From a virus, in IMG/VR virus record IMGVR_UViG_3300028920_000044, positions 32,001 to 96,000 of that record: a DNA stretch of 64,000 nucleotides; one strand, 5' to 3'. Below, piece after piece: positions 8,107-63,672 of the stretch (the first letter of the stretch is position 1; the number at the start of each line of letters is the position of its first letter). The notes below the pieces were generated by a model, which was given only the letters and a program-made list of their open reading frames with translations, did not search any database and was not told where the DNA came from. The position numbers and the translations under genes were made by a program.

Positions 8107-8535
8107 TTAGATATAAGCAGAAAGGCCTTCACCAACTGGCTGACCTTGACTGTTACCTTCTGGCGGAGTTGCTATTGATGCAACTTGTTCTTCTTTGTCT
8201 TTTAAAACTCTAGGAGGAACAATACCTTGCTCCATTGATTTTGTATCCTCAGTAGCTTGTGCATTAAGCGCACTTTCAGCAGCCTTAAGTTGCTTTAATT
8301 CTGGATCTCTATTTCTTTCTTCTGCTTGCCTTGCACTCACCTTAGCAGCCCTCTTTTCTTGGTCCATTTTATCAGCAACTTCAGCTTCAATCCCTTCTTC
8401 CTCAGTTTGTTCTGGAGTTACTACTCGACCCATTGCCCTCGCATATATACGATCGCTTATATCTCCTGGAGGAACTTGTTCTTCTGGTGACATCTCTTGT
8501 GCTTGTTGTTCTAATATATATAATATTGAAATCAT
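8107..8535 (-). CDS. Hypothetical acidic protein with N-terminal tag (MISILYILE)
   Basis: ORF track; RBS GGAG; tag variant. Confidence 0.75.
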   Translation of the reverse strand: MISILYILEQQAQEMSPEEQVPPGDISDRIYARAMGRVVTPEQTEEEGIEAEVADKMDQEKRAAKVSARQAEERNRDPELKQLKAAESALNAQATEDTKSMEQGIVPPRVLKDKEEQVASIATPPEGNSQGQPVGEGLSAYI

Positions 8536-9179
8536 ATGTATTCTCCTAAATTCTCTAAGTTATCCAAATATCGTACTGATTGTTCTTTACTTGCTGTGAG
8601 TACGCCTTTCTTTACACCATACAATGATCTAGTTAGTGCGCTGGGATATGGGGATAACATAGTTCCTAATTTTTTAGCTGTCCCTAATTTATAATTCATA
8701 TACTTTCTTGTCCCCGACCCTACTACTGTTCCTGTTTTAGTTAAAAACTGTCTTCGACTCATCTTTGCATTATCTGCAATTTTATCGGCAGTCTTAATAG
8801 CAGGATCTAACTTCTTCTCAATATTGGCCGCTCTATCTCTTATACTCTGTAATCCACTAGATCTATTAACAAATTTTTGTCCTATCTTACTATCTAACGC
8901 CTTCTTAACACCACCAGCCATTTCATGAGAATGTTTAAAAGCGGCACCTTTCTCTCCAGCAGCCATAACGTTCTTAATAGCACCAGAACCTGTTATTTTA
9001 TCGGGTTTTCGGCCTTTAGCTCTTTCTTTTTGTAATGCTGATCCAACAGCGGCAGCCATTAATCCTTTACCTGCTGCTTTCCCAAAGTTTCTTCTACTAG
9101 GATCAAATGGTGGTGCTTTAAATGATGGCATTAATCCTTTAAGTTTGGATAATTTAATAGCTTCATCAATACTGAGCAT
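8532..9179 (-). CDS. Basic protein with two twin-arginine-like motifs, putative internal virion protein
   Basis: SRRNFGK and SRRQFLTK motifs; Lys-rich. Confidence 0.7.
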   Translation of the reverse strand: MLSIDEAIKLSKLKGLMPSFKAPPFDPSRRNFGKAAGKGLMAAAVGSALQKERAKGRKPDKITGSGAIKNVMAAGEKGAAFKHSHEMAGGVKKALDSKIGQKFVNRSSGLQSIRDRAANIEKKLDPAIKTADKIADNAKMSRRQFLTKTGTVVGSGTRKYMNYKLGTAKKLGTMLSPYPSALTRSLYGVKKGVLTASKEQSVRYLDNLENLGEYI

Positions 9180-9188
9180 AATAATCTC

Positions 9189-9395
9189 CTAATACCAACT
9201 AATCTTTTTGACAATCTTGCCAAACCCTGACATAATGTTCTGTTGACCTACATCTAAATCAAAACATTTAACATAAAAAAAGCCATCTCCCATTTCGACT
9301 TCATATTTGATATCGTATTCCTTCATCTTTTTTAGTATTGATACTATTGCTTCACTATTATTAATACTATACCGTTGGTTTATCTTTAGGTTCAT
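9189..9395 (-). CDS. Hypothetical protein
   Basis: ORF track; in operon. Confidence 0.6.
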   Translation of the reverse strand: MNLKINQRYSINNSEAIVSILKKMKEYDIKYEVEMGDGFFYVKCFDLDVGQQNIMSGFGKIVKKISWY

Positions 9396-9672
9396 TCCTT
9401 CTCTTTCTTTTGATAACAGTAACTCCTAAATCTAATAATTTAGTTATAATCCAACCAAGTACTCCACCTATTGAACCATTAACAATTACATCACTTTTAG
9501 GTACTAATTTTAATTCTATACCTTTATCAATTATTATCTCTTCAATAGTTTTGTTTTTATTATCTTCTATAGGCGACACTGTTTTAAACTTTGGAGTGTA
9601 TGTTGTAGTCAATGTACCTATCATAATACCTACTAATATTACTGGCAAATAAATCCGAATAAATCGTTTCAT
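9367..9672 (-). CDS. Small membrane protein with two hydrophobic segments
   Basis: N-terminal TM and GGVLGWIITKLL segment. Confidence 0.6.
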   Translation of the reverse strand: MKRFIRIYLPVILVGIMIGTLTTTYTPKFKTVSPIEDNKNKTIEEIIIDKGIELKLVPKSDVIVNGSIGGVLGWIITKLLDLGVTVIKRKRRNEPKDKPTV

Positions 9673-9860
9673 TCGTTTATTTCCTCAATCCATTCTATAT
9701 TCTCAAGTATAGATATTTCGCGCTTTAGTATATTCGTTACTGTAAAATATACAATACATTCATCATATTCAGTAATACAATATCCAATATTGTGTTTCTT
9801 AAGTTCCCTCAATATGTGAACTGCATTGCATCCTGTCTTAATTTTATAATATTTGTCCAT
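9669..9860 (-). CDS. Hypothetical protein, weakly similar to 9189..9395
   Basis: ILRELKKHNIGY versus ILKKMKEYDIKY. Confidence 0.55.
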   Translation of the reverse strand: MDKYYKIKTGCNAVHILRELKKHNIGYCITEYDECIVYFTVTNILKREISILENIEWIEEINE

Positions 9861-9872
9861 AAATATTCTCTT

Positions 9873-10448
9873 TTAATATAATATTCTCTCATTCATCTGT
9901 TTTCTAGCAATCATAAGATTCATAAATTCTTTAACCTTTTTAATTGACGTATGCGCAGTTTTATGAAGTATCCCCATTCCGCCCGCTTGAATAAAATCAT
10001 CAATGTTTTGTTTCTCATCATCAATGAGTACAGCGTTAGATCTAGCGAATTTTGCTTTTAATCTTTTATCAGGAACAACGGACATATTAACTAAATATTG
10101 CGCTCCTAATTCTCGTTCAACCCACATCTCTTTACCTAATTTTCTTTTTCTTCCTGGTCCATGACTTACATTTCGACCAGCAGAGGTAAGAATGTAAGGA
10201 TCTTTATCTTTAATAAATGCCCATAATTCTTTTCCACCCTTTATCCAGGGCATATTGCTCCAAAATATAGAACCACCATGAGAGTCTATTAACTTCCACA
10301 TTTTATTTATTTCGCTATGTTTAAAATCTAGAGATCCTGTCCAACCAATATCTTGCATTGCTTTAACGAAATCTGTAAGTACTCCATCCATGTCACAATA
10401 GATACGGAGTCGTTCTTCTTCATCTATTAAGTACTGTAACGGAATCAT
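9873..10448 (-). CDS. HAD-family 5'(3')-deoxyribonucleotidase
   Basis: IYCDMDGVLTDF, ILTS, LIDD...NI motifs; start moved to ATG 10448 (GGAG RBS, tag MIPLQYLIDE). Confidence 0.88.
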   Translation of the reverse strand: MIPLQYLIDEEERLRIYCDMDGVLTDFVKAMQDIGWTGSLDFKHSEINKMWKLIDSHGGSIFWSNMPWIKGGKELWAFIKDKDPYILTSAGRNVSHGPGRKRKLGKEMWVERELGAQYLVNMSVVPDKRLKAKFARSNAVLIDDEKQNIDDFIQAGGMGILHKTAHTSIKKVKEFMNLMIARKQMNERILY

Positions 10449-10449
10449 A

Positions 10450-11022
10450 TTATTTAATCTCCACAAATCGAACAGATCCTAAACTTGTTGTTGACGTATT
10501 CTTCTCCATCTTTATTAGTTCTTGCGAAGATCCCCTTCTAACAGGAACAATTATGTACCCATTCTTTGATAACTGTTTGAATAGAAGAGGTGGTACACTA
10601 TTTGTTAACGCAGAAACGATTATGACATCAAATGGAGCTTTCTCTTTCCATCCTTTTTTACCATCACCAAACTTACTCGATACATTCCTAATATTCGATT
10701 TATTAATCCGAACTTTCGCTTTAATAAGTAAATGTCTATTTATTTCAATAGTGTAAACATGTTTACATAGACTTGCTATAAGAGCAGTTTGCCATCCAGA
10801 CCCTGTGCCCACTTCTAATACTTTTTTATTCTTATCTAATTTCGCCGCTTTTAAGACTATTTTAATAAGAGAGGGTGCAGAAGTAGTTTGTTTATGCTGT
10901 ATCGGTAATGGATCATCTGTATTAGCTAAATGACGAATTTCTAAATCCAAGAAATTCTCTCTCGGAATTTTTCTCATAGCTGTTGTTATCTTATCCTCAA
11001 ATAATCTTAAAATAGGTATCAT
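10450..11022 (-). CDS. pcm: Protein-L-isoaspartate O-methyltransferase
   Basis: AMRKIPRENF, QTTSAP, VLEVGTGSGWQTA, GDGKKGW..APFDVI, VRFVEI; probable start MIPILRLFE. Confidence 0.9.
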   Translation of the reverse strand: MIPILRLFEDKITTAMRKIPRENFLDLEIRHLANTDDPLPIQHKQTTSAPSLIKIVLKAAKLDKNKKVLEVGTGSGWQTALIASLCKHVYTIEINRHLLIKAKVRINKSNIRNVSSKFGDGKKGWKEKAPFDVIIVSALTNSVPPLLFKQLSKNGYIIVPVRRGSSQELIKMEKNTSTTSLGSVRFVEIK

Positions 11023-11044
11023 TTTCATATCTCTCAAGATTTCT

Positions 11045-11075
11045 CCCTTCCAAGAGAAACATTCTCCTGGAAGGG
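11045..11075. terminator. Intergenic 14-bp hairpin
   Basis: CCCTTCCAAGAGAA / TTCTCCTGGAAGGG; G-U pair on minus strand, T-tract on plus side. Confidence 0.5.
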
Positions 11076-11087
11076 GCTTTTTCTTTT

Positions 11088-25348: not shown

Positions 25349-25579
25349 TTACTTCTTTATTTTTTTTCTAATGACAACAGGTTCTTCTTCGATATCTATA
25401 GTCTTGTTATTTTTAGAATCTTTTAATTTCTCTTTTTTAATAATAATTTCTTTCTCCGGTGTAGTTTTCTTTGCAACAGTTATATCAAGATCATTTAATT
25501 CGGGAGGATAAGATTTCTTCCTAACCCGTCTTATAACTATTGACTCTGACTCTTTTAGTATATTACTCAAAGGAATCAT
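25349..25579 (-). CDS. Small basic protein with tag variant (MIPLSNILKE)
   Basis: ORF track. Confidence 0.6.
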   Translation of the reverse strand: MIPLSNILKESESIVIRRVRKKSYPPELNDLDITVAKKTTPEKEIIIKKEKLKDSKNNKTIDIEEEPVVIRKKIKK

Positions 25580-25599: not shown

Positions 25600-25851
25600 T
25601 TAGTATGCTCCCTGCGATCTTTCAACAGCAGTTGGGTTCTTTCTTCTTCTAAGGTCCCGGATTTGCATAATCTCTGCAGCTTTCTGTTTCTGTTCTGCAG
25701 CTTTCTGCGCTGCCAACATAACACCAGGTGGACCCATTCCTACTCTATACTGTCCTGTAGGATAACCCTTTCCTCCAATCTGTTTCGCTGTTCCCGTCAT
25801 AAACGGTTCATAATGGCTCTGTCTTTCAAATAAATGTGATATAGCAATCAT
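25600..25851 (-). CDS. Tagged small protein (MIAISHLFE)
   Basis: ORF track; N-terminal tag. Confidence 0.75.
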   Translation of the reverse strand: MIAISHLFERQSHYEPFMTGTAKQIGGKGYPTGQYRVGMGPPGVMLAAQKAAEQKQKAAEIMQIRDLRRRKNPTAVERSQGAY

Positions 25852-32626: not shown

Positions 32627-33100
32627 CTACAATGCGTTCTTAATTATCTTCGGCAGATTTATCCACCAAGGTTTAAATCTTCTTGGATTATCATCATAAG
32701 AAAAATCTGATACTACTCCAATTCGATGCATACCTCTATTACCTATACCATATCCAGCATAATAACCTTTATTTCTATTTATGCTTGATACTACTTTCTT
32801 TATTTGCATCTCATCACTATCTGGCATACGAAAAATGAAATATGTAGGAACAGACTTTCCATCAGTGAATCCTTGGCAACTAGCCCTACCTTCAATTCCC
32901 TCTATATTGTCTAATTGATTCAATGCCGAAGTTGGAATAATTTTATCTACTTTAATTCCTTTCCAAACTGTTTTAGTATGTTCAGCACAATGTGGGAAAA
33001 TAAAAGGTGAATCACCTTTATGCAATATACTATATGCAAACATAGGCGCATTCGTTTTTTGATCATGTCTAAATTCAAATAAATAAGATATAGATATCAT
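32627..33100 (-). CDS. Tagged hypothetical protein (MISISYLFE)
   Basis: ORF track; N-terminal tag. Confidence 0.75.
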   Translation of the reverse strand: MISISYLFEFRHDQKTNAPMFAYSILHKGDSPFIFPHCAEHTKTVWKGIKVDKIIPTSALNQLDNIEGIEGRASCQGFTDGKSVPTYFIFRMPDSDEMQIKKVVSSINRNKGYYAGYGIGNRGMHRIGVVSDFSYDDNPRRFKPWWINLPKIIKNAL

Positions 33101-34136: not shown

Positions 34137-37100
34137 TTATTCCTCCTCATCTAATACTTTTCTAACTTGTTGAATTAATTCTCTCAATGTGTAAGGTTTA
34201 TTAATGAAGCTTTTTGCTCCAGAACCAATTGCGTCGTTAATAGGACCATTAGCAGAATATCCGCTAGCCACAATGATTTTAGCAGTAGGTTCTTCAATAA
34301 TAATTCTTTCTAATACTTCTGTTCCTCCTATATCAGGCATAATTAAATCTAGAATAACTAAATCAATTAATTCCTTATTATTATTATAAGTCTCCAACCC
34401 CGATATACCGTCACAAGCAGATAAGACTGTATAACCATACATTTCTAGAATCTTGGTCCCTACTTTCTTGATATCTTCTTCATCATCGATCATAAGGATA
34501 GTTTCTTTTCCACCTATAAGATCCTTAGTTAAATCTATGGATGTTTGTTTCATTTCTTCCCCATCACTAATAGGGATATACAATTTAAACTCTGTTCCTT
34601 CATTCAAATTACTATATACAGTTATATACCCACCATGACTTTGCATAATACCATACACAACGGCTAATCCTAAACCAGTTCCTTTACCTGGTTCTTTAGT
34701 AGTAAAGAAAGGTTCAAAAATTCGTTCTTGTACATCAAAACTCATTCCTTCACCAGAATCAACGATACATATTCTGATATAATTCCCTGGTGTAGCATCA
34801 GGATGTTTCTCACAGTAATATTCGTCTAATTCTACTACCTTCGTTGTGATCATTATATGGCCACCATGAGGCATAGCATCTTTGGCATTTATACATAGAT
34901 TCGTTATTACTTGATTTAATTGAGTAGGGTCTGCCAAACCAAGTGGTAAATCTTCTTGAAGTTTTAACTTAATTTTTATCATAACTGGACCAGTTGCTGC
35001 ACGATCGAGAAGCTTATGGGCTAATTTAATTTCTTCGTTAACATTAATAGATTGAAGTCTACTTTCTACTTGTCTACTAAATGTAAGCAATCGTTTAGCT
35101 AAATCTGCTCCTCGCATAGATGCAGTATACATCGCAGATAACTGGCTTTTGATATCTTCATGATCCTTCACCATAAGTAACTGTAAATTACCGCTTATGA
35201 TTTGAACAATGTTGTTAAAGTCATGAGCAACACCACCAGCTAATGTCCCAACGGCTTCCATTTTAGAAGCTCTGCGTAATTGTCTTTCTTTTTCTAATAA
35301 AGCTTCTTGGGCTTTCTTCATACCAGAAATATCTTTAATTATTGAAAGAATATGATCCTCGCCACCTATCTTAATTACACTTGAAGAAACTAAAGCAGAT
35401 TTTGAAACACCATCTTTTCCTCTCAACATGGCTTCCATACTATCAACATATCCTCGTTCTCCAAGACTTTCATAGAACTTATCTCTATCTTCTTGATCTG
35501 ACCACATCTCTAATTCGATTACATCTTTTCCTATAGCTTCTTCTCTAGTGTATCCTGATTCTTTTGTGAATCCTTGATTAACATCAACTATAATACCACT
35601 ATTAGCTTTAAGAAGGATTATTGGATCAGGACTTGTTGTAAATGCTAATCTAAATTTCTCTTCACTTTCTTCAAGAGATTTCGTCGCGTTATAGCTATAA
35701 GTAATATCTTCAAATGCAATAGCAATACGATCTCCAGGTAAACAAAATGCTTTTATTCTATAAACACCGTCAAGATGGTCAGAATGATATATATAACCTT
35801 CATTCTCATACGGACCATTCTTTAAAACGCAAGAATTATAAAGCGCATTCTTTAAATCTCCTCCACCTGGCCATATTTCGTCAAAAGATTTACCTTGATT
35901 ACTACCAATATCTATTCTTGTGATTAATTCAGCAGCAGGATTACCATCAATAAGTATCATTTCTAAGTTCTTGCATTCATAAATAAAAATACCCGATGGT
36001 ACCGTCTCAAATATTTGAGATGCTGTCTGTAATTCATATTCTGCTTTAACCCGTGAAGTAATATCTTGACCAAGTGAAATAACACCTACTAACTCACCTT
36101 TATCATTATGAAGAATTGTGTTATTCCATTCGCAAGTTATAACATCTCCGGATTTAGTAAGATTATCATTCACAATATGGATCGGTAATGTTTTATTTAA
36201 TAAACTTTCAACAACATCTAAAAGTTGTAAACGCTCATGCTTTGGAATTAAGAAATCAAAGATATTGTTCCCAATTACTTCTTCTTTCGACCATCCAAAG
36301 ATTTTTTCTGCATGATCATTCCATTCTTTTATGTGAGTGTGTTCATCCCAAAATATAATAGCGAGAGGAGCAGTCTCGAAAAGAGTTCTATATCGCTCTT
36401 CACTTTCTCGTATAAGATATTGTGATTGTTTACGACCTAACGCAATACCGATACTCGCTCCAAGTCCTTCAAAAAACTCAATCATATCCAGAGTAAACAT
36501 ATTCCTTCGACGATCATTTAATTGTAGTAACCCTATATTTATTCCTTCTGGAGAAACTAATGGAATAAGACCAACTGACATATATCCTTCTGCATTACAC
36601 CTGTTACGAGTTTTAAGTTTGACACCTGTCGGTACACCATCGTCTTTTAATAATTCAACTGTGTTATTTGTCCAGAAACTACCACCAATTGTAAAGTGGG
36701 GTAGGTTAGAATCTGTCTCTCCGCAAATAATCATACCACACATACAATCTAAACAAGCTGTACCGTCCGAATGCCTGATTACATTACCTACTTCGTCCCG
36801 TGAACATATATGGGTTTCTTTTTGAACAAAGTCTTCATCAAATCCTTCAGTTACATAATAAGGATATTCATCATTATCTTGTAATCTAATAGCAACAGCA
36901 TCTAACCTAGTAAACCTTTTAATAAGAGTTAAAATCTTCTTAATAGTTAATTCAGCTTCAAATTCAGAATTAAGAATATCTAAGACATTTGAAGATAACT
37001 CCTGTCTTTCCCGATAACGTACTACATCTGATATGTCAGAGACTATTCCCACAAATCCAATTACCTCATTGTTTTTATCTCGTTTATAATTCCAATCAAC

Positions 37101-39215: not shown

Positions 39216-39228
39216 ATAACACCTCCGA

Positions 39229-39597
39229 TTATTCGTCGAGTACTTCTCTAACGACTGTTTCTAACTCTTTTATATCTACTGGTTTCTGAACTAATCTTTT
39301 TGCACCTAAACTCGAACCATCCTCATTAGATGAAGTAATATAACCACTTAAAACTATAACCTTCACTTCTGGATTTATCTGTGTTAGCAGCACAATAGCA
39401 TCTTCTCCTTCAATATCAGGTAAACGCAAATCCATAAGTATTAAATCGATGTTACTATAATTTTGTTCATAATATGATTTAGCAGATGTAAATTCATAAA
39501 AACAAACAGTTTTATAATTATACTTTCCTAACATCTGGGCCAATATATCACAAATAGGCTTTTCATCATCCAATATTAATATTGATTCTTTAGACAA
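39229..39597 (-). CDS. Single-domain response regulator (CheY/CpdR-like)
   Basis: LDDE, MDLRLP, LSG, QKP. Confidence 0.92.
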   Translation of the reverse strand: MSKESILILDDEKPICDILAQMLGKYNYKTVCFYEFTSAKSYYEQNYSNIDLILMDLRLPDIEGEDAIVLLTQINPEVKVIVLSGYITSSNEDGSSLGAKRLVQKPVDIKELETVVREVLDE

Positions 39598-42287: not shown

Positions 42288-42869
42288 TCATTGTACACCC
42301 TCTGCTCTCTCCATCTTTATCTTATCTATTTCTATTTGAACCATTTTGCTCAAGTATTTTTTTAAAGACTTCCAACATTCTCTATCATTATTCTCTGGAT
42401 CAATACCTTTTTTATGTTTATCACCATCATTAGCTTTCCATCCGTCATCTTTACTAGGTATCAATGAATAGTTACCTTCTGTCTTATTAGGGATAAATAC
42501 GAAACAACCATTATTCTCTCCACTAAATCGACTTAATTTTTTATATTGGCCTTTCACAATATGACCAGCATAACCACTTACTAATTGACACCGAAAGTAA
42601 AATACTGGGTTCTCCCAGTCACCACCAGCTTGATGTAACCTACAATTAAACTTGCATTCTGTATGATCCCATTGATTCTGTGGAATAATTATTATTTTTT
42701 CCTGTCTATGATAAGTATCATCATTTTCTTGATCGAACCATATTTTAAAATCTTTCTTAGCTTGGACAGTTATATCTCTCCACATTCTACTTGCTAATTG
42801 ATCATAATGAAAGAACTGTGGTTTAAGTTTCTTTATTGCTTCATATAAATAAATCATCAGAGACACCAT
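42288..42869 (-). CDS. Hypothetical protein with tag variant (MVSLMIYLYE)
   Basis: ORF track. Confidence 0.75.
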   Translation of the reverse strand: MVSLMIYLYEAIKKLKPQFFHYDQLASRMWRDITVQAKKDFKIWFDQENDDTYHRQEKIIIIPQNQWDHTECKFNCRLHQAGGDWENPVFYFRCQLVSGYAGHIVKGQYKKLSRFSGENNGCFVFIPNKTEGNYSLIPSKDDGWKANDGDKHKKGIDPENNDRECWKSLKKYLSKMVQIEIDKIKMERAEGVQ

Positions 42870-52896: not shown

Positions 52897-53166
52897 TTAT
52901 ATTACAGTGCCTATAGCTCCAGCAGCAGCTCCAGCAGCAGTAGATATCGCTAAATCTCTACGAGATTTCTTTTTCTCTTCTGGAGTTTTCTTATGTTTAG
53001 ATTGAGTTAATTTAGATGCTGCTGCACCACTAAGACCCCATACGGTTGCTTGTTTTAGAGCTGCTTTAGCACCACCACCTTTTACAGCAGCATGTAAAGC
53101 ATTCTTTAATTGTTTGACTGGTATGTCGTCTATATTAATTTCAAATAAATGTGCAACAGGTATCAT
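52897..53166 (-). CDS. Tagged protein (MIPVAHLFE) with Gly/Ala-rich segments
   Basis: Start moved to ATG 53166. Confidence 0.7.
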   Translation of the reverse strand: MIPVAHLFEINIDDIPVKQLKNALHAAVKGGGAKAALKQATVWGLSGAAASKLTQSKHKKTPEEKKKSRRDLAISTAAGAAAGAIGTVI

Positions 53167-55923: not shown

Positions 55924-56148
55924 CTAACGCAGCTTATTATTCATAACTGCGGCAGCTCTCAAGAGGGCTGGATTTCTCGAAGGTAATGTTGTAGGCATTA
56001 CTTCTTTCCTTCGAAAAGGTCTCTTCAGCAGTTGGGCTCCAGTGTGCGCAACATCTCTGAAACTAGGAACACTCATCTCATCAACATTATAGTCTTCATT
56101 TTTAGAAAAATTTAACGGGTCGTTAAACAAATACGATACAGGTATCAT
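55924..56148 (-). CDS. Tagged small protein (MIPVSYLFN)
   Basis: N-terminal tag. Confidence 0.7.
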   Translation of the reverse strand: MIPVSYLFNDPLNFSKNEDYNVDEMSVPSFRDVAHTGAQLLKRPFRRKEVMPTTLPSRNPALLRAAAVMNNKLR

Positions 56149-57350: not shown

Positions 57351-57533
57351 TCACCTAAGGCTAGAGTATCTACTCAATACTTTATTTTGATATATTGTAA
57401 ATAATCCTTTTTTCTTCTCTCTCTTTACTGGATCAGGTTCCTTTTTAATGGCATCAGCCATTGCAGGAATTACTTTTGTAGGCTTACTTAAATTAGCTGC
57501 TTTACCATCAAATATATGACTAATTGAAATCAT
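57351..57533 (-). CDS. Tagged small protein (MISISHIFD)
   Basis: N-terminal tag. Confidence 0.7.
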   Translation of the reverse strand: MISISHIFDGKAANLSKPTKVIPAMADAIKKEPDPVKREKKKGLFTIYQNKVLSRYSSLR

Positions 57534-57997
57534 TATGACACACTCCTCGCAAATGTTTTAGCGACATCTCTCGCTTTCTCATCTGTTTTAATAATAAACG
57601 GTTTGCTTATTCTATCGAATCCACTTGTTTTATTAGTAATCTTATCACCTATACCAAAAGAAGCAATAGCTCGATGACTCCATCCAAACCATTTACCACT
57701 CGCCGCTTTACCGAATGAATCTACTGAACTGTTCATAGTTTGTCTTTCTCCTCTAATTCCTAACCACTGAGGATAAGTCGACAATGGATGCCCTTTAGAG
57801 TCTTTTGGTACATTCTTAACAGTTCGATCTTCTGGTGCAATTTTAGTAACAAAATATTGATTGCGTTTAAACTTCTTCATCCTATTTGTTTTAGGATTAA
57901 AGTCTTTAACCTTCTTTTTCTTTCTTTTAACAACAGCATATTCACCAGATTTAAGATCTGGCTTTTTATCTTCAAATAACCAAGATATAGTAATCAT
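57533..57997 (-). CDS. Tagged protein (MITISWLFE) with KWFGWSHRA motif
   Basis: N-terminal tag. Confidence 0.75.
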   Translation of the reverse strand: MITISWLFEDKKPDLKSGEYAVVKRKKKKVKDFNPKTNRMKKFKRNQYFVTKIAPEDRTVKNVPKDSKGHPLSTYPQWLGIRGERQTMNSSVDSFGKAASGKWFGWSHRAIASFGIGDKITNKTSGFDRISKPFIIKTDEKARDVAKTFARSVS

Positions 57998-58006: not shown

Positions 58007-58345
58007 TTATGCCGCGCTTTTAGTAATTCTAGGCATGTTAGTTTTACGCCTTTCAATACCTTTATATGGTTTAACTTTAAGGGTCTTAGGCTCCAATTCT
58101 TTCCTTGCCCTTCGTATCATATTTGTAGCTCCGCCAATAGCAGCATTACCGAATCTCATCATTTGTGTTCTATGTTTAGTTGGAACCATACTAGGATCTG
58201 CACCAGCTGCAAATCCAGACACTCTCCTACCTTCCTTAGACATAACATTAGAGATCCCTAAGTAATCATTTCTCTTTTTAAAAGTTTTAATCTGTGCTTT
58301 GGCGCTAGGACTATATTTCTCAAATAACCATCCTACTGTTATCAT
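58007..58345 (-). CDS. Tagged basic protein (MITVGWLFE)
   Basis: N-terminal tag. Confidence 0.75.
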   Translation of the reverse strand: MITVGWLFEKYSPSAKAQIKTFKKRNDYLGISNVMSKEGRRVSGFAAGADPSMVPTKHRTQMMRFGNAAIGGATNMIRRARKELEPKTLKVKPYKGIERRKTNMPRITKSAA

Positions 58346-58446
58346 AATATATCCTTATAATTAATTACAAACTTATACCTTTTAAGATCAACTAAATTTA
58401 ATCCTATAGTGGGAATTGCTTCAAATAACCAAGATATTGATATCAT
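58342..58446 (-). CDS. 34-aa tagged ORF absent from the track (MISISWLFEAIPTIGLNLVDLKRYKFVINYKDIL)
   Basis: Manually translated; AAGGA RBS; ATGA overlap with the next gene. Confidence 0.7.
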   Translation of the reverse strand: MISISWLFEAIPTIGLNLVDLKRYKFVINYKDIL

Positions 58447-58449: not shown

Positions 58450-59001
58450 TTATCCTTTAGCATGATCAAACTTAACAAGTTTGAAGAACTCTTGACCTGT
58501 CATACGTGGTTTAAGTTTTCTTGGATCAATTTCAACAGAGTTATATCCTTTGCCACCCTTTTGTACCTTCTCCATAAAAGAATATACTAATCGAATTATT
58601 TGATCTATATTATTAAATGGCCCACGTATACCTCTAAATTTAGCAAATGAATGTTCGAAATACATCCACTTATCAATTTGCTTATACGCTACAAATGAAT
58701 GACAACTGGTATAATATTGCTGTATGTGAATTAATTTATGTTCACGATTCCATTTCTTAAAGAAGTAATGTTCAAACCATGTCTGCTCGTAACATGTACC
58801 TATCTTATATTTATACACTTCTTCAGGAGTAGCTATAACACATTTATTCCACCAAAGATCAGGATCGTCAAAATCAGTATACTTTTTATGGTTCTTATCC
58901 ATCCAACCATATTTGATACGATCCATCCATTTTAATAATTCTTCTGGAGTCTTGATATCTAGCATATTCAGCATCTCAAATAAACATTGGATAGGTATCA
59001 T
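58450..59001 (-). CDS. Tagged transglutaminase-like / papain-fold protein (MIPIQCLFE)
   Basis: TPEEV...GTCYEQ, CHSFVAY, WMYFE: Cys-His-Glu triad pattern. Confidence 0.7.
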   Translation of the reverse strand: MIPIQCLFEMLNMLDIKTPEELLKWMDRIKYGWMDKNHKKYTDFDDPDLWWNKCVIATPEEVYKYKIGTCYEQTWFEHYFFKKWNREHKLIHIQQYYTSCHSFVAYKQIDKWMYFEHSFAKFRGIRGPFNNIDQIIRLVYSFMEKVQKGGKGYNSVEIDPRKLKPRMTGQEFFKLVKFDHAKG

Positions 59002-59399
59002 TGTTTGTCCTTCGCTTCTCTTGCTCTATTTATAAGTCGTTCAGCATCTTCTATATCACCTATTGCTCGTCTAAATACATCTAGAAATATTGAATTAACA
59101 TGCTGATCAATCTTATAGCTTTTCTTACCAACATTATTCTCTATTAAAGAAGAAACAATTCCCTTTTTATAAAAAGCAATAAATGAAGCTCTTATACAAT
59201 TCACTGCAACATATTGTGCCATTGTTGGCATACAGGAGTTTGATAATTGCTTTTCTTTATTCGCACACTTATCAATATACTTATCAATATATTTCGAGTA
59301 GAACTGTTCTAATTTCTGAGTTTCACTGTTCGCTGGAATAGCTAAAGACATAAGAGAAATGAATATAAAAAACACTGATATATCTATTAACTTTAACAT
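58998..59399 (-). CDS. Secreted/periplasmic hypothetical protein
   Basis: Signal peptide ending PANS. Confidence 0.65.
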   Translation of the reverse strand: MLKLIDISVFFIFISLMSLAIPANSETQKLEQFYSKYIDKYIDKCANKEKQLSNSCMPTMAQYVAVNCIRASFIAFYKKGIVSSLIENNVGKKSYKIDQHVNSIFLDVFRRAIGDIEDAERLINRAREAKDKQ

Positions 59400-59424
59400 T
59401 TCTCAATCCCTCCAGTCAGTTGAT

Positions 59425-59748
59425 TTAGGCCCCTGCAACATTTGTTTTCTCGTCGTAATTTGCATTCCCCACAAATTTATCTGCGTCTTTATCGACATCA
59501 GACTCTCCAGATAATTCTGGATCTACTTTAGCATTATCAGCGGTAATACTACCACCTTGAAAATGTTGCGCAATTCTTTTCTTTGCTACACTTGATAAAT
59601 TGATAGGAATATTCACAGCAGGATATTTAGAAGTATATCCCCTTTTAGTGAATTGAAATACGTCATTTTCTCCTATCCTCCGAAGTCCTTTCACTAGGAT
59701 TAAAGCACCTAACCCTGATGAAATTCCCAAAGCTTCTAATTTCGTCAT
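59425..59748 (-). CDS. GISSGLGAL-KGLRR family protein
   Basis: AAGGAG RBS; motif. Confidence 0.75.
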   Translation of the reverse strand: MTKLEALGISSGLGALILVKGLRRIGENDVFQFTKRGYTSKYPAVNIPINLSSVAKKRIAQHFQGGSITADNAKVDPELSGESDVDKDADKFVGNANYDEKTNVAGA

Positions 59749-59752
59749 AAGC

Positions 59753-60805
59753 CTACTCCTTTAAAGATTCAAGAAAATCATTAAAATCATTAAAACCATA
59801 CAATACATCAAATGCAGCATCCGCACATTCTTCATCATACAGTATACCTCTGTTTTTATTTATTTCATCTAACGCTACCGCAACTCCAAGAGCAGGCCTA
59901 TATGGTCTATGTGTTGACATCGATTCGATTACATCACTAACAGCAATAATCTTGGATGAAAACAAAATGTCATCACCTTTTAATCCTTGTGGGTAACCAG
60001 ACCCATTTATTCTCTCGTGATGTTGATGTACTATTTCAGAAACATCACAAGGTAACAGATCTTTAAATGGAATGTTTTTAATTATATCGTATCCTACATC
60101 TGAATGGTCTTTAATCAAAGCAAACTCATTCTTACTCAATTTTGATGGTTTAGTCAAAATATCAGAAGGTATAGATATCTTACCAATATCATGCATTAAG
60201 CCAGCAATACGAACACAATCAACTCTATCTTCTTTTAATCCAAGAATCTTAGCCATTTCAACAGATAATTGTGTAACCCTTTCTTGATGTCCCGCAGTAT
60301 AAGGATCTCTAGCTTCCGTTACTTTGGAGAGAGTTCTAATTGTTTGATCTAATACATTAATTACTTCTTGAGTTTTTTCTTTCACTTCTCTCTCTAAATT
60401 TATCTTATAATTCTCTTGGTGTACTAAGAGTTGATATTTTTCAATACAATTATTGACGGTGTGCAGTAACAAATCAAAATTAACCGGTTTCATTAAATAA
60501 TCACAGGCACCATGTCTAAGAGAATCTACTATATCCTGCATTGAACCAGCACCAGAGAACATAACAACTTGGTGTTTTGGATAATCACTTTTAATAAGTG
60601 CCAAAAGTTGAACACCAGTCAATCTTGGCATATCAATATCAGTAAGCGTTACAATTGGCGTATATTGATTAAATAATCTTAAACCTTCCTCCCCATCGTT
60701 TGCTGTAATGACTTCGAACCCATTCCCCTCCAAGAAATGTTTTATTGGTTCTACTACCAACGGTTCATCATCAATCAAAAGAATCTTAAAGGGTTCATTC
60801 ATCAC
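59753..60805 (-). CDS. Response regulator with HD-GYP cyclic-dinucleotide phosphodiesterase (RpfG-like)
   Basis: REC IDDE/TDIDMP/KP; RDPYTAGHQERV, HDIGK, HHERINGSGYP, RPYR. Confidence 0.95.
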   Translation of the reverse strand: MMNEPFKILLIDDEPLVVEPIKHFLEGNGFEVITANDGEEGLRLFNQYTPIVTLTDIDMPRLTGVQLLALIKSDYPKHQVVMFSGAGSMQDIVDSLRHGACDYLMKPVNFDLLLHTVNNCIEKYQLLVHQENYKINLEREVKEKTQEVINVLDQTIRTLSKVTEARDPYTAGHQERVTQLSVEMAKILGLKEDRVDCVRIAGLMHDIGKISIPSDILTKPSKLSKNEFALIKDHSDVGYDIIKNIPFKDLLPCDVSEIVHQHHERINGSGYPQGLKGDDILFSSKIIAVSDVIESMSTHRPYRPALGVAVALDEINKNRGILYDEECADAAFDVLYGFNDFNDFLESLKE

Positions 60806-61179: not shown

Positions 61180-61185
61180 ATACCT

Positions 61186-61491
61186 CTAAATATTCAAACA
61201 TGTTTCTAAATCCATTCTAACACTCGATGTCGGAGAAAGAGGATCAAACTTAATTGCAGTCGAATACTCCCTTTTATCCAGTTTAACACACCGATTACAA
61301 AGCCCCGTAAGGTTAATATCACCCGAAGGTAAACTTAAAATGATAGTTAATAATGATCCTTTTTCGATAAATTTATTAGTTCGACACATTACTCCACTCA
61401 AACTAATATCTTTTGTTTTGCCAAGAATTTGGTCATTTATTTTTATATTTAATTCTTGACATGCTCGGTTAAAGAATCTTTGATCATTCAT
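61186..61491 (-). CDS. PilZ domain protein
   Basis: RFFNR (RxxxR), DISLSG, TAIKF; start MNDQR with GAGG RBS. Confidence 0.85.
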   Translation of the reverse strand: MNDQRFFNRACQELNIKINDQILGKTKDISLSGVMCRTNKFIEKGSLLTIILSLPSGDINLTGLCNRCVKLDKREYSTAIKFDPLSPTSSVRMDLETCLNI

Positions 61492-61516
61492 TTTTCCTCT
61501 TTTGCACCTTAAAGAT

Positions 61517-61843
61517 TTAAGACTTGACAGCGTGTCCTTCTTCGACAAGAAGTTCATTAATGTTGGTTTCATCGACCACTAATATACCCAACACCCTACC
61601 GTATTTACCTCTTTTATCTAACTTGGTTTGAATTGTGAATTTCTCCGGTAACAATTCTTTAAGACGATGTTTAGCGGCAAGCCCTTTCATCTTCTGAACA
61701 TCATCCCTTGTTCTTACTTCAGGAGCATTAATTCCGAATAAACGAATTCGACTCTTATAATGCATATCAAAACCTAAATCAATAATAACATCAACGGTAT
61801 CACCGTCAATTATTCTATCTAATTTACAACTATACTCATACAT
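61517..61843 (-). CDS. Thermonuclease (SNase-like)
   Basis: IDGDT, RIRLFGINAPE, GKYGRVLG, INELLVEEGHA. Confidence 0.9.
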   Translation of the reverse strand: MYEYSCKLDRIIDGDTVDVIIDLGFDMHYKSRIRLFGINAPEVRTRDDVQKMKGLAAKHRLKELLPEKFTIQTKLDKRGKYGRVLGILVVDETNINELLVEEGHAVKS

Positions 61844-61852
61844 CCTTTCACC

Positions 61853-62566
61853 TTATACGTGCGCAAATTTAAGTTTACTAGATTGTTTAGCAGCCTTTTT
61901 GGCAGCTTGTTTCTTTTCAACCATTCTGGCATTGCGTTGTAATTGAAGTGCGGCTCTATCCATTTTTCTTGATTTAGCCGCTTCACTTCCAGCTTTTTTA
62001 GCTACAGAATAGCTTTTTGTACTTACTTTTGAATTAGAACTCCCATCTCTTTGTAACTTCTTATTTAGAAATGCGAGTCGAGTGGCAGCCTTCCCATGTC
62101 TTATAGCTTTATTTGCATGAATTCCCGCCTGGTCTTTAATCTTTTCTGCATGCTTCCTAACTATCTTTCTTCCAAGTTTTGTGCCATATGCAATTCTTCT
62201 TACACCTTTAACAATAGCTCTACCTACTTTATTTTTACTCATACGATGTGTTAACTTTCGAATTTCACTATGCCGTTTTCCGCCCCAACGTCTTTCTTGA
62301 TCTGTGCCCATATCTGCTGCATCTTTAAGATCTTTTTCGATTTGTACTTGTTCACTTCCTGAAAATTTATCAGATTTAGAAATACCTTCCCATACAATAG
62401 AAAACTCTCTATCAAAATAATTATCTATTTCAGTGATATTATCAGTATCGAGAAAACGCAATACATCTTCAAGGAATGATTCACCATATTTATTTATACA
62501 ACACACTGTAATATCTTCAATGATTTGTTCATCAGTGTCAACAAACAAATTTGATATTGTAATCAT
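61853..62566 (-). CDS. Tagged acidic-N/basic-C protein, paralog of 62580
   Basis: MITISNLFVD; VKGVRRIAYGTKLGRK. Confidence 0.8.
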   Translation of the reverse strand: MITISNLFVDTDEQIIEDITVCCINKYGESFLEDVLRFLDTDNITEIDNYFDREFSIVWEGISKSDKFSGSEQVQIEKDLKDAADMGTDQERRWGGKRHSEIRKLTHRMSKNKVGRAIVKGVRRIAYGTKLGRKIVRKHAEKIKDQAGIHANKAIRHGKAATRLAFLNKKLQRDGSSNSKVSTKSYSVAKKAGSEAAKSRKMDRAALQLQRNARMVEKKQAAKKAAKQSSKLKFAHV

Positions 62567-62579
62567 ATCAATCTCCTAA

Positions 62580-63323
62580 TTATTTCATTGCAAGCAAGGG
62601 GACATTGCGTTTAGCTTGAGGTTTCATTCTTTTTGTGTTCCCTTGTTTAGCTTTTTGCTTTTTCTCAATAAAGTCAGCGTTTCTTCTTAACTGATGTGCT
62701 TGTCTTAATTTCTTCGATGCTTGATGAGCATATACTCCAGCGTTACGGCCATGTGCATCAGATGCCATATTATAGGACATAGCAGCACCAAGATTCCCAA
62801 GATTCCCAAGGGTTGTGTTCTTTGAAATACCTTTTGCTCTTAATGCAGCTCTTAATGACTCTTTCCCATGCTGACCAGCTTTAGTCATTTCTGGTGATGC
62901 CATCTTATCAACAACATCTGCATATTTCCTAACAACTTTTCTTCCTAATTTAGTTCCATATGCTACACGCCGTACTCCTTTAACAACCGCTCTACCAATT
63001 TTACTTTTACTCAATTGATTCGTAATCTTTCTAATACCTCTTCTTTTACCAGTTAAAGACTCACTAGCTTTTCGTCCAGATTTAATTGAGTCTTTAACAT
63101 TCTTTCTTACTTCCCTTTTATCCTCATCATCAAATTCTTCTACTTCAAATAAAGCATTATACTCTTTATCAAAATATTCTTCCATTTCTGTCATAATACC
63201 AGATTCGAAGAAAGGAATAATGCTTTCGAGAAAACAATCGCCGTATTTATAAAAACAATGTATAGTAAGATCCTCTATTAATTGTTCATCAGGATCTATA
63301 AATAACTCTGATATTGGAATCAT
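62580..63323 (-). CDS. Tagged acidic-N/basic-C protein, paralog of 61853
   Basis: MIPISELFID; VKGVRRVAYGTKLGRK. Confidence 0.8.
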   Translation of the reverse strand: MIPISELFIDPDEQLIEDLTIHCFYKYGDCFLESIIPFFESGIMTEMEEYFDKEYNALFEVEEFDDEDKREVRKNVKDSIKSGRKASESLTGKRRGIRKITNQLSKSKIGRAVVKGVRRVAYGTKLGRKVVRKYADVVDKMASPEMTKAGQHGKESLRAALRAKGISKNTTLGNLGNLGAAMSYNMASDAHGRNAGVYAHQASKKLRQAHQLRRNADFIEKKQKAKQGNTKRMKPQAKRNVPLLAMK

Positions 63324-63333
63324 AATAATATCC

Positions 63334-63672
63334 TTACTTTTTCTTCCTTGGAGTAACTACAAATATAGTTTTACCTTTATTATCTTTAAGCTTTTGTCTA
63401 ATATCAGCAGCAGTATCTTTGTAAGATTTAGCTTTTATACCTAGGTTGTTAGAATATTTTATTGCTCTTTTTCCACCACCTTGGAATTTCCCAATTTTCT
63501 TTGCACCATAGGAAAGTCTTTCAGCCCCCTTACCCATCTTTTCTCGAACTTTAGCCCAATCTTTCATTACACTCCGACCTAATTTAGAACGATAAGGCAC
63601 CATACTTAATCCTCTAGTAATTGAAGTTCCAATTTTGAACTTTGATTCGAATAAGTAAGATATTGCAATCAT
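63334..63672 (-). CDS. Tagged basic protein (MIAISYLFE)
   Basis: N-terminal tag; YRSKLGR resembles YGTKLGR of neighbours. Confidence 0.75.
   Translation of the reverse strand: MIAISYLFESKFKIGTSITRGLSMVPYRSKLGRSVMKDWAKVREKMGKGAERLSYGAKKIGKFQGGGKRAIKYSNNLGIKAKSYKDTAADIRQKLKDNKGKTIFVVTPRKKK

What the first reader, a model, noticed from the sequence alone, without database searches (positions are those of the whole stretch)
8107..63672. Shared N-terminal tag M-I-x-I-x-x-L-F-E on about 20 unrelated proteins: candidate capsid-targeting / cargo-loading system
Seen: 13 close matches, given by start coordinate: 11022 MIPILRLFE, 25851 MIAISHLFE, 33100 MISISYLFE, 53166 MIPVAHLFE, 56148 MIPVSYLFN, 57533 MISISHIFD, 57997 MITISWLFE, 58345 MITVGWLFE, 58446 MISISWLFE, 59001 MIPIQCLFE, 62566 MITISNLFV, 63323 MIPISELFI, 63672 MIAISYLFE. 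Eight variants: 8535, 9179, 10448, 25579, 34134, 42869, 44057, 49227. After residue 9 the proteins are mostly unrelated and often basic, and the tag codons vary synonymously. Tail, replication and signalling genes lack it. Known: T4 internal proteins carry a 10-aa capsid targeting sequence removed by the gp21 protease after I/L-x-E. Inference: this is a distinct, modular address label ending in an L-x-E cleavage site that loads a large payload into the head for injection.
Basis: partly seen in the sequence, partly recalled or inferred. Interest (0 to 1): 0.92.

Follow-up and report, generated by a model that had tools for sequence, protein, structure and literature searches.

The report
Capsid-loading tag on giant-phage proteins
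About twenty unrelated small proteins of an uncultured marine-sediment giant phage start with the same nine-residue tag, which ends in the cutting motif of the phage's own T4-type head protease, so they are most likely loaded into the capsid, clipped and injected with the DNA: a much expanded variant of a mechanism known from phage T4, not yet shown by experiment.

Summary
On the minus strand, 13 ORFs in the window (plus 2 just past its end) begin M-I-[SPTA]-[IV]-S-x-L-F-E, and 8 more carry variants. A DNA pattern for the tag matches 10 times against 0.01 expected. Selection acts on the protein. Conservation is 3-periodic, synonymous codon use equals the genome's, and Ser is coded by both TCN and AGY. 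The window is part of a 109-kb fragment of a ~300-kb phage. Relatives (TerL 48-76% identical) each carry 10-23 tagged ORFs. Tagged proteins are unrelated beyond the tag, small, mostly basic, rarely membrane proteins, and never core genes. They include a PCMT methyltransferase, a nucleotidase, a Tad6-like anti-Thoeris protein and a SUKH protein. Cellular PCMT homologues lack the tag. The phage encodes a T4 gp21-type prohead protease (known cut rule L/I-x-E). Its capsid protein, core protein and protease also start with short leaders ending hydrophobic-x-Glu, as in T4. The best reading is a T4-like capsid targeting and clip-off leader, with a different sequence and far more client proteins. Packaging, cleavage and injection are inferred, not shown. 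This scan has noted similar tags in other uncultured T4-type giant phages. I rate it a new variant of a known kind, of moderate interest.

The parts
10450..11022 (-). Tagged ORF, 190 aa, MIPILRLFE + protein-L-isoaspartate O-methyltransferase (PCMT) domain
   Evidence: Pfam PCMT E 1.8e-47, domain starts at residue 9. Phage-type homologues keep the tag, and more than 90 cellular homologues lack it.
25600..25851 (-). Tagged ORF, 83 aa, MIAISHLFE, pI 10.3, no family
   Evidence: The orthologue in relative G004 begins MISIRYLFE.
32627..33100 (-). Tagged ORF, 157 aa, MISISYLFE, basic, no family
   Evidence: Orthologues in G004 (MLSLLKLFE) and G002.
52897..53166 (-). Tagged ORF, 89 aa, MIPVAHLFE, pI 10.3
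55924..56148 (-). Tagged ORF, 74 aa, MIPVSYLFN (Asn in place of Glu)
57351..57533 (-). Tagged ORF, 60 aa, MISISHIFD (Asp in place of Glu; Ser5 coded by AGT)
57533..57997 (-). Tagged ORF, 154 aa, MITISWLFE + basic linker + Tad6-like (type I Thoeris inhibitor) C-terminal domain
   Evidence: Pfam PF25188 Tad6, 53 bits (cut-off 27), residues 74-154. The G004 orthologue has a 13-residue leader, MISVCNYITPIFE, directly before the same DKKPDLK.
58007..58345 (-). Tagged ORF, 112 aa, MITVGWLFE, pI 11.3
58342..58446 (-). Tag-only mini-ORF, 34 aa, MISISWLFE; possibly a remnant
58450..59001 (-). Tagged ORF, 183 aa, MIPIQCLFE
61853..62566 (-). Tagged ORF, 237 aa, MITISNLFV; I-I-E follows at residues 15-17; paralogue of the next two
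62580..63323 (-). Tagged ORF, 247 aa, MIPISELFI; L-I-E at residues 15-17; paralogue
63334..63672 (-). Tagged ORF, 112 aa, MIAISYLFE, pI 10.8
8107..8535 (-). Variant tag MISILYILE, 142 aa, acidic (pI 4.5), next to the large terminase gene; absent from G001 and G003
   Evidence: The G004 orthologue begins MIPISYLFE.
8532..9179 (-). Head-only variant MLSIDE..., 215 aa
9873..10448 (-). 10-residue variant MIPLQYLIDE, 191 aa, 5'-3' deoxyribonucleotidase
   Evidence: phrog_2643 E 7e-27. The G004 orthologue begins MISISQLLE.
25349..25579 (-). 10-residue variant MIPLSNILKE, 76 aa
33868..34134 (-). 10-residue variant MLSILGTLYE, 88 aa
   Evidence: The G004 orthologue begins MLSIHHLLE.
42288..42869 (-). 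10-residue variant MVSLMIYLYE, 193 aa
43563..44057 (-). 10-residue variant MISLVSYFRE, 164 aa
49003..49227 (-). Head-only variant MISILE..., 74 aa
6231..8084 (-). Large terminase, T4 type (untagged); context marker of the virion module
   Evidence: Pfam Terminase_6N; 48-76% identical in relatives

Best explanation
The 9-residue N-terminus M-I-[SPTA]-[IV]-S-x-L-F-E is a protein-level, portable leader of the same kind as the phage T4 capsid targeting sequence. It appears to have two parts. The hydrophobic/small alternating head (M-I-S-I/V) would dock the new protein to the assembling prohead core. The tail L-F-E is a cleavage site (P3 L/I, P1 Glu) for the phage's own T4 gp21-type prohead serine protease. 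After shell assembly the protease would clip the leader off. That would leave some twenty small, mostly basic proteins and a few enzymes inside the head, to be ejected with the DNA at the next infection. The enzymes and domains include PCMT, a deoxyribonucleotidase, a Tad6-like anti-Thoeris domain and a SUKH immunity-type domain. Shown here: the tag is real, is under amino-acid-level selection, is modular, sits only on accessory soluble proteins, and matches the cut rule of a protease family that the phage does encode. The head proteins carry the same kind of leader. Inferred: docking, cleavage, packaging and injection.
For: (1) Non-random and N-terminal only: 10 pattern matches against 0.01 expected. 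Matrix hits occur at 12-21 N-termini per genome and at 0 of ~6,300 internal-Met windows.
(2) Amino-acid-level selection: information content is 3-periodic, with low third positions. Synonymous codon use at tag positions equals genome use: Ser3 is TCN 26: AGY 11 against an expected 25:12, chi-square p 0.2-0.8 at most positions (p 0.04 at Pro3, n=8, and Leu7 is TTA-biased, p 0.008).
(3) Clade-wide: the tag occurs in relatives G001 (285 kb, 23 ORFs), G004, G005, G003, G002 and G008, with TerL 48-76% identical. A degenerate 10-mer form M[IL]S[IV][IL]xx[LI]xE occurs in the complete 315-kb G006.
(4) Modularity: phage PCMTs 51-100% identical to this one all carry the tag fused directly before the conserved helix, and more than 90 cellular PCMTs lack it. 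In the Tad6-like orthologue pair the leader is 9 or 13 residues, but both end in [LI]FE immediately before the same DKKPDLK.
(5) Protease: genome 23088-23870 (L049:3088-3870) matches Pfam Peptidase_S77 at 27.2 bits (cut-off 27). The clade profile against T4 gp21 scores 28 bits, with the catalytic His and Ser motifs aligned. H90 and S156 are invariant in 63 homologues. The model (pLDDT 85.5) best matches T4 gp21 structure 5JBL, E 2e-8. The T4 gp21 rule is cleavage after L/I-x-E (PMC9026906).
(6) The head proteins carry the same kind of leader. The MCP begins M + 2-8 variable residues + [LI]-[FY]-E in more than 100 homologues, and it has a nearly invariant L-x-E|A at residues 66-68 that resembles T4 gp23 LTE65|A. 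The core protein in the gp67/68 position begins MLLVEVLFE, MFLVEVLFE or MFLCEILTE. The protease begins ..FIFE..FMIE or ..LIFE, and that Glu is conserved in at least 90% of homologues. T4's own proteins read gp68 MLLIPE, gp67 MEGLIE, gp21 ..LLIE, gp24 ..LLRE.
(7) Cargo-like properties: median length ~105 aa, about 80% have pI > 8, and 2/75 have TM-like segments against 12.6% of other proteins (p 0.006).
(8) Accessory and fast-turnover: 0/93 tagged genes occur in >=5 of 8 genomes, against 270/1381 untagged (p 6e-9). They sit as inserts between conserved virion genes.
(9) In the 95%-complete G001, 18 of 21 tagged genes lie in the 132-gene virion-gene arm, against 3 of 303 genes elsewhere (p 1e-7).
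(10) Precedent: T-even internal proteins are a diverse set that shares only a CTS (PMC3012670, PMC9026906).
Against: There is no direct evidence of cleavage, virion location or injection, and no cultured relative with a virion proteome. The nearest cultured phages (Bacillus BpSp, Staphylococcus S6/Madawaska, MCP ~22% identical) lack the tag. The tag has no residue similarity to the T4 CTS beyond hydrophobic-x-E. Five of the 15 canonical tags in this genome have N, D, V, I or G in place of Glu at position 9; in T4, Asp at that place blocks processing (PMC9026906), so not all would be clipped there. Tags are no more identical between orthologues (46%) than the rest of the protein (41%), so the signal is a loose class pattern. 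In the MCP model the LFE lies in a predicted N-terminal helix and may be structural rather than a cut site. Two tagged ORFs in relatives look like membrane proteins. No gp22-type scaffold was identified. Timing of expression is unknown.
Confidence: 0.6

Rival explanations
1. The leader is only a processing signal. The prohead protease, or another Glu-specific peptidase, clips it to activate, inactivate or time these proteins in the infected cell, and they are not packaged.
For: The hydrophobic-x-E end and the gp21-type protease are the best-supported parts. Nothing here shows packaging. Enzymes such as PCMT and a nucleotidase have obvious uses inside the producing cell.
Against: In T4 the gp21 protease acts within the assembled prohead (PMC9026906), so its substrates have to be inside. 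The conserved head M-I-S-I/V would be unnecessary for a minimal L/I-x-E site. Tagged proteins are small and basic like T4 internal proteins.
Confidence: 0.12
2. The leader is a recognition peptide for some other partner: a modifying enzyme (RiPP-like or radical-SAM maturase, as an earlier finding of this scan read a tag in phage RB43), a chaperone, an export route or a degradation machine.
For: Shared N-terminal leaders on unrelated proteins are also the hallmark of maturase-recognised precursors (earlier finding e1-127136). The alternating hydrophobic/Ser pattern could form a beta-strand that docks to many kinds of partner.
Against: There is no linkage to radical-SAM genes: none in G000 or G005, one distant gene in G001, and eight in G006, the genome with the fewest canonical tags. 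There is no signal-peptide architecture (no basic n-region, no 10+ residue hydrophobic core, acidic end). The same motif type sits on the capsid protein, core protein and protease, which ties it to head assembly.
Confidence: 0.15
3. The conservation is at the DNA or RNA level: a translational operator or enhancer over the start codon, a promoter element, or a recombination site for shuffling gene heads.
For: The motif always includes the ATG. Leu7 is somewhat TTA-biased (p 0.008). A 34-aa tag-only ORF (58342-58446) could be a recombination scar.
Against: Third codon positions are free. Ser is coded by TCN and AGY in genome proportions. I, V, F and E codons follow genome usage. The peptide is kept across genomes of 28-35% GC with different nucleotides. 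Leader length varies while the peptide ends are kept.
Confidence: 0.03
4. The shared N-termini are only inherited from a common ancestor gene (a paralogue family) and have no function of their own.
For: 62566, 63323 and 63672 are paralogues.
Against: All other pairs show no similarity beyond residue 9. Tagged proteins belong to at least four unrelated Pfam/PHROG families. Cellular PCMTs lack the tag. The tag persists in lineages with TerL only 48% identical.
Confidence: 0.03

Closest known systems
Phage T4 capsid targeting sequence (CTS) of internal proteins IPI, IPII, IPIII and Alt, removed by the gp21 prohead protease (Mullaney & Black 1996; reviews PMC9026906, PMC3012670)
   Same: A short (~10 aa) N-terminal leader is the only shared part of otherwise unrelated, small, often basic, fast-evolving proteins. 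It ends in L/I-x-E. The phage has a gp21-family protease. MCP, core proteins and the protease itself carry short hydrophobic-x-E leaders. Some client proteins look like counter-defence factors (T4 IPI*; here Tad6-like and SUKH domains).
   Different: The sequence is unrelated (MIS[IV]SxLFE against MKTYQEFIAE) and is 9 residues rather than 10. There are 20 or more clients per genome (5-15% of genes), against a handful in T4. The host phage is a ~300-kb uncultured marine-sediment lineage whose MCP is closer in fold to jumbo phages S6 and phiKZ than to T4. Clients include housekeeping-type enzymes. No experimental proof exists.
[quoted passage not shown]
   Same: The cargo genes are hypervariable and the leader is conserved, which has been read as an arms race with host defences.
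   Different: Here the cargo genes are spread over many islands between conserved virion genes and in a ~15-kb block, not confined to one or two loci.
Head/ejection-protein propeptides of giant phages phiKZ, 201phi2-1 and SPN3US, cut by gp175/gp245-type proteases (PMC5694885, PMC10052503)
   Same: Giant phages load many proteins into the head and process them after Glu with a gp21-related protease.
   Different: Those propeptides are mostly over 100 residues long and are not a shared short tag. Their cut motif is A/S/G-x-E rather than L/I-x-E.
Encapsulin cargo-loading peptides
   Same: A short portable peptide addresses diverse cargo to the interior of an HK97-fold shell.
   Different: They are usually C-terminal, are not removed by a protease, have a different consensus, and involve no DNA packaging or injection.

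Membership tests
T4-type capsid targeting sequence / prohead-protease propeptide system | A short N-terminal leader is the only shared part of otherwise unrelated proteins | tested here: met
   All-against-all BLAST without the first 10 residues found only one paralogue trio. The proteins belong to four unrelated domain families.
T4-type capsid targeting sequence / prohead-protease propeptide system | The leader ends in the gp21 cut motif L/I-x-E | tested here: met
   Across 75 tagged ORFs, position 7 is L/I in 71, position 8 is F in 68, and position 9 is E in 64. Variants have hydrophobic-x-E at residues 8-10 or 4-6.
T4-type capsid targeting sequence / prohead-protease propeptide system | The phage encodes a gp21-family (Peptidase S77) serine protease with catalytic His and Ser | tested here: met
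   Pfam S77 27.2 bits (cut-off 27). Clade HMM against T4 gp21 28 bits, with the His and Ser motifs aligned. H90 and S156 are invariant. Foldseek best hit 5JBL, E 2e-8.
T4-type capsid targeting sequence / prohead-protease propeptide system | A T4-like head gene module (portal, small core protein, protease, MCP; gp17-type terminase) | tested here: met
   Portal_T4 26.4 bits (cut-off 22.9) and the gene order portal / 112-aa acidic ORF / protease / MCP. Terminase_6N. The MCP model matches jumbo-phage S6 and phiKZ and T4 gp23/gp24 shells. By sequence the MCP link to gp23 is weak: 2 of 29 members hit Pfam Gp23, and there is no HMM match. No gp22 scaffold was found.
T4-type capsid targeting sequence / prohead-protease propeptide system | The structural head proteins themselves carry hydrophobic-x-E propeptide sites | tested here: met
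   MCP [LI][FY]E at residues 4-8 and L-x-E|A at 66-68. Core protein MLLVEVLFE. Protease ..FIFE or ..FMIE. The T4 equivalents were read from NC_000866. These are sequence motifs only; cleavage was not observed.
T4-type capsid targeting sequence / prohead-protease propeptide system | Sequence similarity of the leader to the T4 CTS MKTYQEFIAE | tested here: not met
   Only the hydrophobic-x-E end is shared by inspection. It works like a CTS but is not the same peptide.
T4-type capsid targeting sequence / prohead-protease propeptide system | The leader is removed, and the mature protein is present in virions and ejected | not testable with these tools
   There is no isolate or virion proteome. The sequence is known only from marine-sediment metagenomes.
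T4-type capsid targeting sequence / prohead-protease propeptide system | The leader alone suffices to package a foreign protein | not testable with these tools
   This needs a fusion experiment. The nearest natural evidence is the tag fused to a host-type PCMT.
Maturase-recognised leader peptides (RiPP-like / radical-SAM-linked phage tags) | Tagged genes co-occur with a radical-SAM or other maturase gene | tested here: not met
   PF04055: none in G000 or G005, one distant gene in G001, and eight in tag-poor G006.
Sec/Tat/lipoprotein signal peptides | A basic n-region, a hydrophobic h-region of 10 or more residues, and a signal-peptidase site | tested here: not met
   The tag has nine residues, no basic residue at the fixed positions and an acidic end. 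Tagged proteins are depleted in TM-like segments.

The most novel reading that the evidence does not exclude
The 9-mer is a bipartite, portable capsid address: a docking head M-I-S-I/V plus a clip site L-F-E. It defines an injected 'effectorome' of 20 or more rapidly exchanged proteins per genome across a whole uncultured clade of ~300-kb marine phages. The clients include counter-defence factors (Tad6-like, SUKH) and enzymes captured from hosts (PCMT, nucleotidase). If so, injected phage proteins could be read directly from sequence, and the protease itself may be the docking receptor.
Probability: 0.4. Interest if true: 0.7.

Novelty: new variant of a known kind. Interest (0 to 1): 0.55.

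Why it matters
If the tag does what the T4 CTS does, it marks from sequence alone which proteins a large uncultured phage lineage carries in its head and fires into the host with its DNA. That set is the first wave of host take-over and counter-defence, and normally it can be found only by virion proteomics of a cultured phage. The set is large (5-15% of genes), turns over quickly between relatives, and already contains a Tad6-like anti-Thoeris domain and a SUKH immunity-type domain. It is therefore a ready list of candidate anti-defence proteins. The tag is also a candidate 9-residue handle for loading foreign proteins into capsids. The principle itself is known from T4, and this scan has noted similar tags in other T4-type giant phages. 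The advance is therefore in extent and generality, not in kind.

Tried and rejected
- Megablast of 12 kb against cultured phages gave no match.
- The genome search with PF03420, PF04586 and PF07068 found nothing because its first look gave no candidates. hmmscan on the called protein later did find S77.
- phmmer of the protease against PDB sequences gave no hit; the fold search was needed.
- An HMM of the clade MCP against T4 gp23/gp24 gave no sequence-level match.
- Complex prediction of the protease (residues 20-260) with residues 1-30 of the 63672 protein returned 'no answer' (ipSAE 0.00, controls not run). This is no evidence either way.
- No RNA holder was listed for the stretch, so nothing can be said on expression.
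- PADLOC gave no useful hit on ten tagged proteins.
- PHROGs gave no function for most small tagged proteins.
- Bacillus phage BpSp and Staphylococcus phage Madawaska, the nearest cultured MCP relatives, show tag-pattern matches only at control level.
- A promoter search found a TATATAGAAAT motif that marks mostly non-structural genes. This gives location evidence only and no timing for the tagged genes.
- Literature searches for a description of this tag or clade found none.
- The idea that the tagged 142-aa ORF next to TerL is the small terminase was dropped, because it has no homologue in G001 or G003, where a conserved ~1,100-aa gene abuts TerL.

Full report
WHAT IS THERE. The window is bases 32001-96000 of a 109,194-bp viral contig. 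CheckV rates the contig 41% complete. An identical PCMT protein is on record on a 306-kb contig, and the sequence is held by marine-sediment metagenomes. The window is therefore part of a ~300-kb giant phage. Nearly all genes run on the minus strand. Every coordinate in the finding is the A of a minus-strand ATG that heads a real ORF with a Shine-Dalgarno-like motif upstream. Thirteen ORFs in the window, and two more just beyond its end, begin M-I-[SPTA]-[IV]-S-x-L-F-E. A degenerate DNA pattern for the tag matches 10 times against 0.01 expected from shuffles. A position matrix finds the tag at 12-21 N-termini per genome and at none of about 6,300 internal-Met windows.

PROTEIN LEVEL, NOT DNA LEVEL.
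- Information content across the first nine codons is 3-periodic: first and second positions are conserved and third positions are free.
- Over 51 strict tags from five genomes, synonymous codon use at each conserved residue equals genome-wide use. Ser3 is TCN 26: AGY 11, with 25:12 expected. Chi-square p is 0.2-0.8 for Ile, Val, Ser, Phe and Glu. The exceptions are Leu7, which is TTA-biased (p 0.008), and Pro3 (n=8, p 0.04).
- Relatives write the same peptide with other codons, for example ATGATTAGTATAAGT for M-I-S-I-S.

The DNA/RNA rival is rejected.

UNRELATED, MODULAR, ACCESSORY.
- With the first ten residues removed, only 62566, 63323 and 63672 are related to one another.
- Domain hits all start after the tag: PCMT methyltransferase (11022), 5'-3' deoxyribonucleotidase (10448), a Tad6-type Thoeris-inhibitor domain (57997), and a SUKH/SMI1-KNR4 domain (64079).
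- PCMT gives a natural experiment. The ten phage-type homologues 51-100% identical to this one all carry the tag fused directly before the conserved helix. More than 90 cellular PCMTs have an ordinary N-terminal helix instead. Three phage versions keep only MIP[LV].
- In the Tad6-like orthologue pair the leader is MITISWLFE in this phage and MISVCNYITPIFE in its relative. Both abut the same DKKPDLK. This points to a two-part tag: a head M-I-S-I/V and a tail [LI]-F-E.
- Tagged proteins are small (median ~105 aa) and about 80% have pI > 8, against ~40% of the others. Only 2 of 75 have TM-like segments, against 12.6% (p 0.006).
- None of 93 tagged genes is found in five or more of eight related genomes, against 270 of 1,381 untagged genes (p 6e-9). 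They sit as inserts between conserved virion genes. One example is a 3-kb island of tagged genes between the 972-aa protein and the terminase, which G001 and G003 lack.

A WHOLE CLADE HAS IT. A pattern scan of IMG/VR and follow-up searches found the tag in contigs that share a syntenic virion module with this phage (TerL 48-76% identical):
- G001: 285 kb, 95% complete, 23 tagged ORFs, consensus MIS[IV]SxLFE.
- G004, G005, G003, G002 and G008.
- G006: a complete 315-kb relative that carries only a degenerate 10-residue form, M[IL]S[IV][IL]xx[LI]xE. There, head plus tail occurs at 9 of 515 N-termini against 1 of 1,941 internal windows.

The MCP has 128 clusters of homologues in metagenomes. The nearest cultured phages (Bacillus BpSp and the Staphylococcus S6 group, ~22% identity) lack the tag.

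THE LINK TO HEAD ASSEMBLY. Upstream of the window the genome encodes, in order, a portal, a 112-aa acidic ORF, a 260-aa protease and a 517-aa MCP. This is the T4 order 20-67/68-21-23 without gene 22.
- Portal: Pfam Portal_T4 26.4 bits, cut-off 22.9.
- Protease: it reaches Pfam Peptidase_S77, the gp21 family, at 27.2 bits (cut-off 27). A clade profile matches T4 gp21 at 28 bits with the catalytic His (DHP) and Ser (GFSLR) motifs aligned. H90 and S156 are invariant in 63 homologues. The AlphaFold model (pLDDT 85.5) best matches the T4 gp21 crystal structure 5JBL (E 2e-8), and herpesvirus assemblins come next.
- MCP: the model matches jumbo-phage S6, phiKZ, P1 and T4 gp23/gp24 shells.

T4 gp21 cuts after L/I-x-E. 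The T4 CTS is a 10-residue leader whose residues 4 and 7 target and whose residues 8 and 10 direct processing (PMC9026906).

The tag's L7-F8-E9 fits that rule. The head proteins of this clade carry the same kind of leader:
- The MCP begins M + 2-8 variable residues + [LI]-[FY]-E in over 100 homologues. It also has a nearly invariant L-[TQS]-E|A at residues 66-68, followed by a low-confidence linker. This resembles the T4 gp23 site LTE65|A.
- The core protein begins MLLVEVLFE, MFLVEVLFE, MFLCEILTE or MLTIYNNSLLFE.
- The protease begins ..YNFIFE..YHFMIE..NLIFE or ..FIYE, and that Glu is conserved in at least 90% of homologues.

Read from the T4 record itself, gp68 begins MLLIPE, gp67 MEGLIE, gp21 MNEPQLLIE and gp24 MAKINELLRE.

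In the near-complete G001, 18 of 21 tagged genes lie in the 132-gene arm that holds the virion genes, and 3 lie among the 303 other genes (p 1e-7). A promoter-like motif, ATATAGAAAT, is distributed the other way round: 7 copies in that arm against 58 elsewhere.

MOST LIKELY MECHANISM. The leader works like the T4 CTS. Its head docks the protein to the prohead core, perhaps to the protease zymogen itself as an extended P9-P1 strand. The shell then closes, the protease cuts after L-F-E, and the mature proteins stay in the head and leave with the DNA. Shown: the tag, its protein-level selection, its modularity, its restriction to accessory soluble proteins, the protease family, and matching motifs on the head proteins. 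Inferred: docking, cleavage, packaging and injection. Five of the 15 canonical tags here have N, D, V, I or G at position 9. By the T4 precedent (Asp blocks processing but not targeting) these would be packaged uncut, or cut further downstream: 62566 and 63323 have I-I-E and L-I-E at residues 15-17. I put 0.6 on the whole chain and about 0.95 on 'a functional protein-level N-terminal signal'.

RIVALS.
- Processing without packaging (0.12). This cannot be excluded by sequence.
- A leader for some other partner (0.15). I tested this because an earlier finding of this scan read a phage tag as a radical-SAM recognition site. Radical-SAM genes do not track the tag here: none in G000 or G005, one distant gene in G001, and eight in tag-poor G006.
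- A DNA/RNA element (0.03) and plain paralogy (0.03). reject both.

COMPARISON AND NOVELTY. [quoted passage not shown] The known giant phages phiKZ and SPN3US instead use long propeptides (over 100 residues) and A/S/G-x-E sites (PMC5694885).

What differs here:
- the peptide, which is unrelated to MKTYQEFIAE and is 9 residues long;
- the number of clients, 20 or more per genome;
- their spread through the virion module;
- the lineage, which is uncultured.

I found no published description of this tag. This scan has logged similar CTS-like tags in several other uncultured T4-type giant phages, which I did not re-test. I rate it a new variant of a known kind, with interest 0.55. It would surprise a T4 specialist in extent rather than in principle, but it offers a sequence-only way to list probable injected proteins.

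LIMITS. There is no experiment and no isolate. Gene calls in the relatives come from my own simple ORF caller.

Noticed in passing
window 58342-58446 (minus strand): A 34-aa ORF consists of a perfect tag (MISISWLFE) plus 25 residues and sits directly upstream of another tagged gene. It may be a remnant of gene-head exchange between tagged genes.
   Followed up: no
window 8107-11037 (minus strand): A ~3-kb island of mostly tagged genes (PCMT, nucleotidase, a 215-aa ORF and a 142-aa ORF) lies between the conserved 972-aa virion protein and the large terminase. Relative G004 has it. G001 and G003 lack it; there the two conserved genes abut.
   Followed up: partly
L052 (G005) 1248-8911: The portal and major capsid genes of relative G005 are each split by inserts that encode HNH-type endonuclease-like ORFs, which look like intron or intein-style homing elements. 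The MCP of G008 is also in two pieces.
   Followed up: no
G001 108-264 kb; window 21309, 27711 (genome 53309, 59711): A promoter-like motif T(C/T)ATATAGAAAT(A/T)AT precedes dozens of non-structural genes in G001 (58 copies outside the virion arm, 7 inside). A few genes in this genome also carry it (Cas4-like nuclease, DnaB-like helicase, the 426-aa gene).
   Followed up: partly
G006 216-225 kb: The complete 315-kb relative G006 has a cluster of radical-SAM genes (six of its eight), and it has only degenerate tags.
   Followed up: no
G006 58985-60619: G006 has a second, diverged MCP paralogue (32% identity, begins MRLQDRIFANY). It may be a gp24-like vertex protein. A variant-tagged 105-aa ORF (MISILNVLTE) lies next to it.
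   Followed up: no
proteins P0131-P0133: Three phage PCMT homologues, one on a 171-kb contig that also carries a 78%-identical MCP, keep only MIP[LV] and lack the LFE part. This could be a tag that is decaying or is not cleavable.
   Followed up: no
L049:4171-6201 (portal) and G001/G005/G008 portals: Portal N-termini (MPTFFSHVFRD, MSFFGELFKD, MSLFGQFFKD) resemble the tag in spacing (hydrophobic pair, small residue, x, L/V-F) but have K/R-D where the tag has E. They may bind the same partner without being cut.
   Followed up: no
window 34137-39597 and 59753-60805: A 1,692-aa sensor-kinase-like protein, a lone receiver domain and a receiver-containing protein lie among the virion genes and the tagged genes. 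None carries the tag.
   Followed up: no
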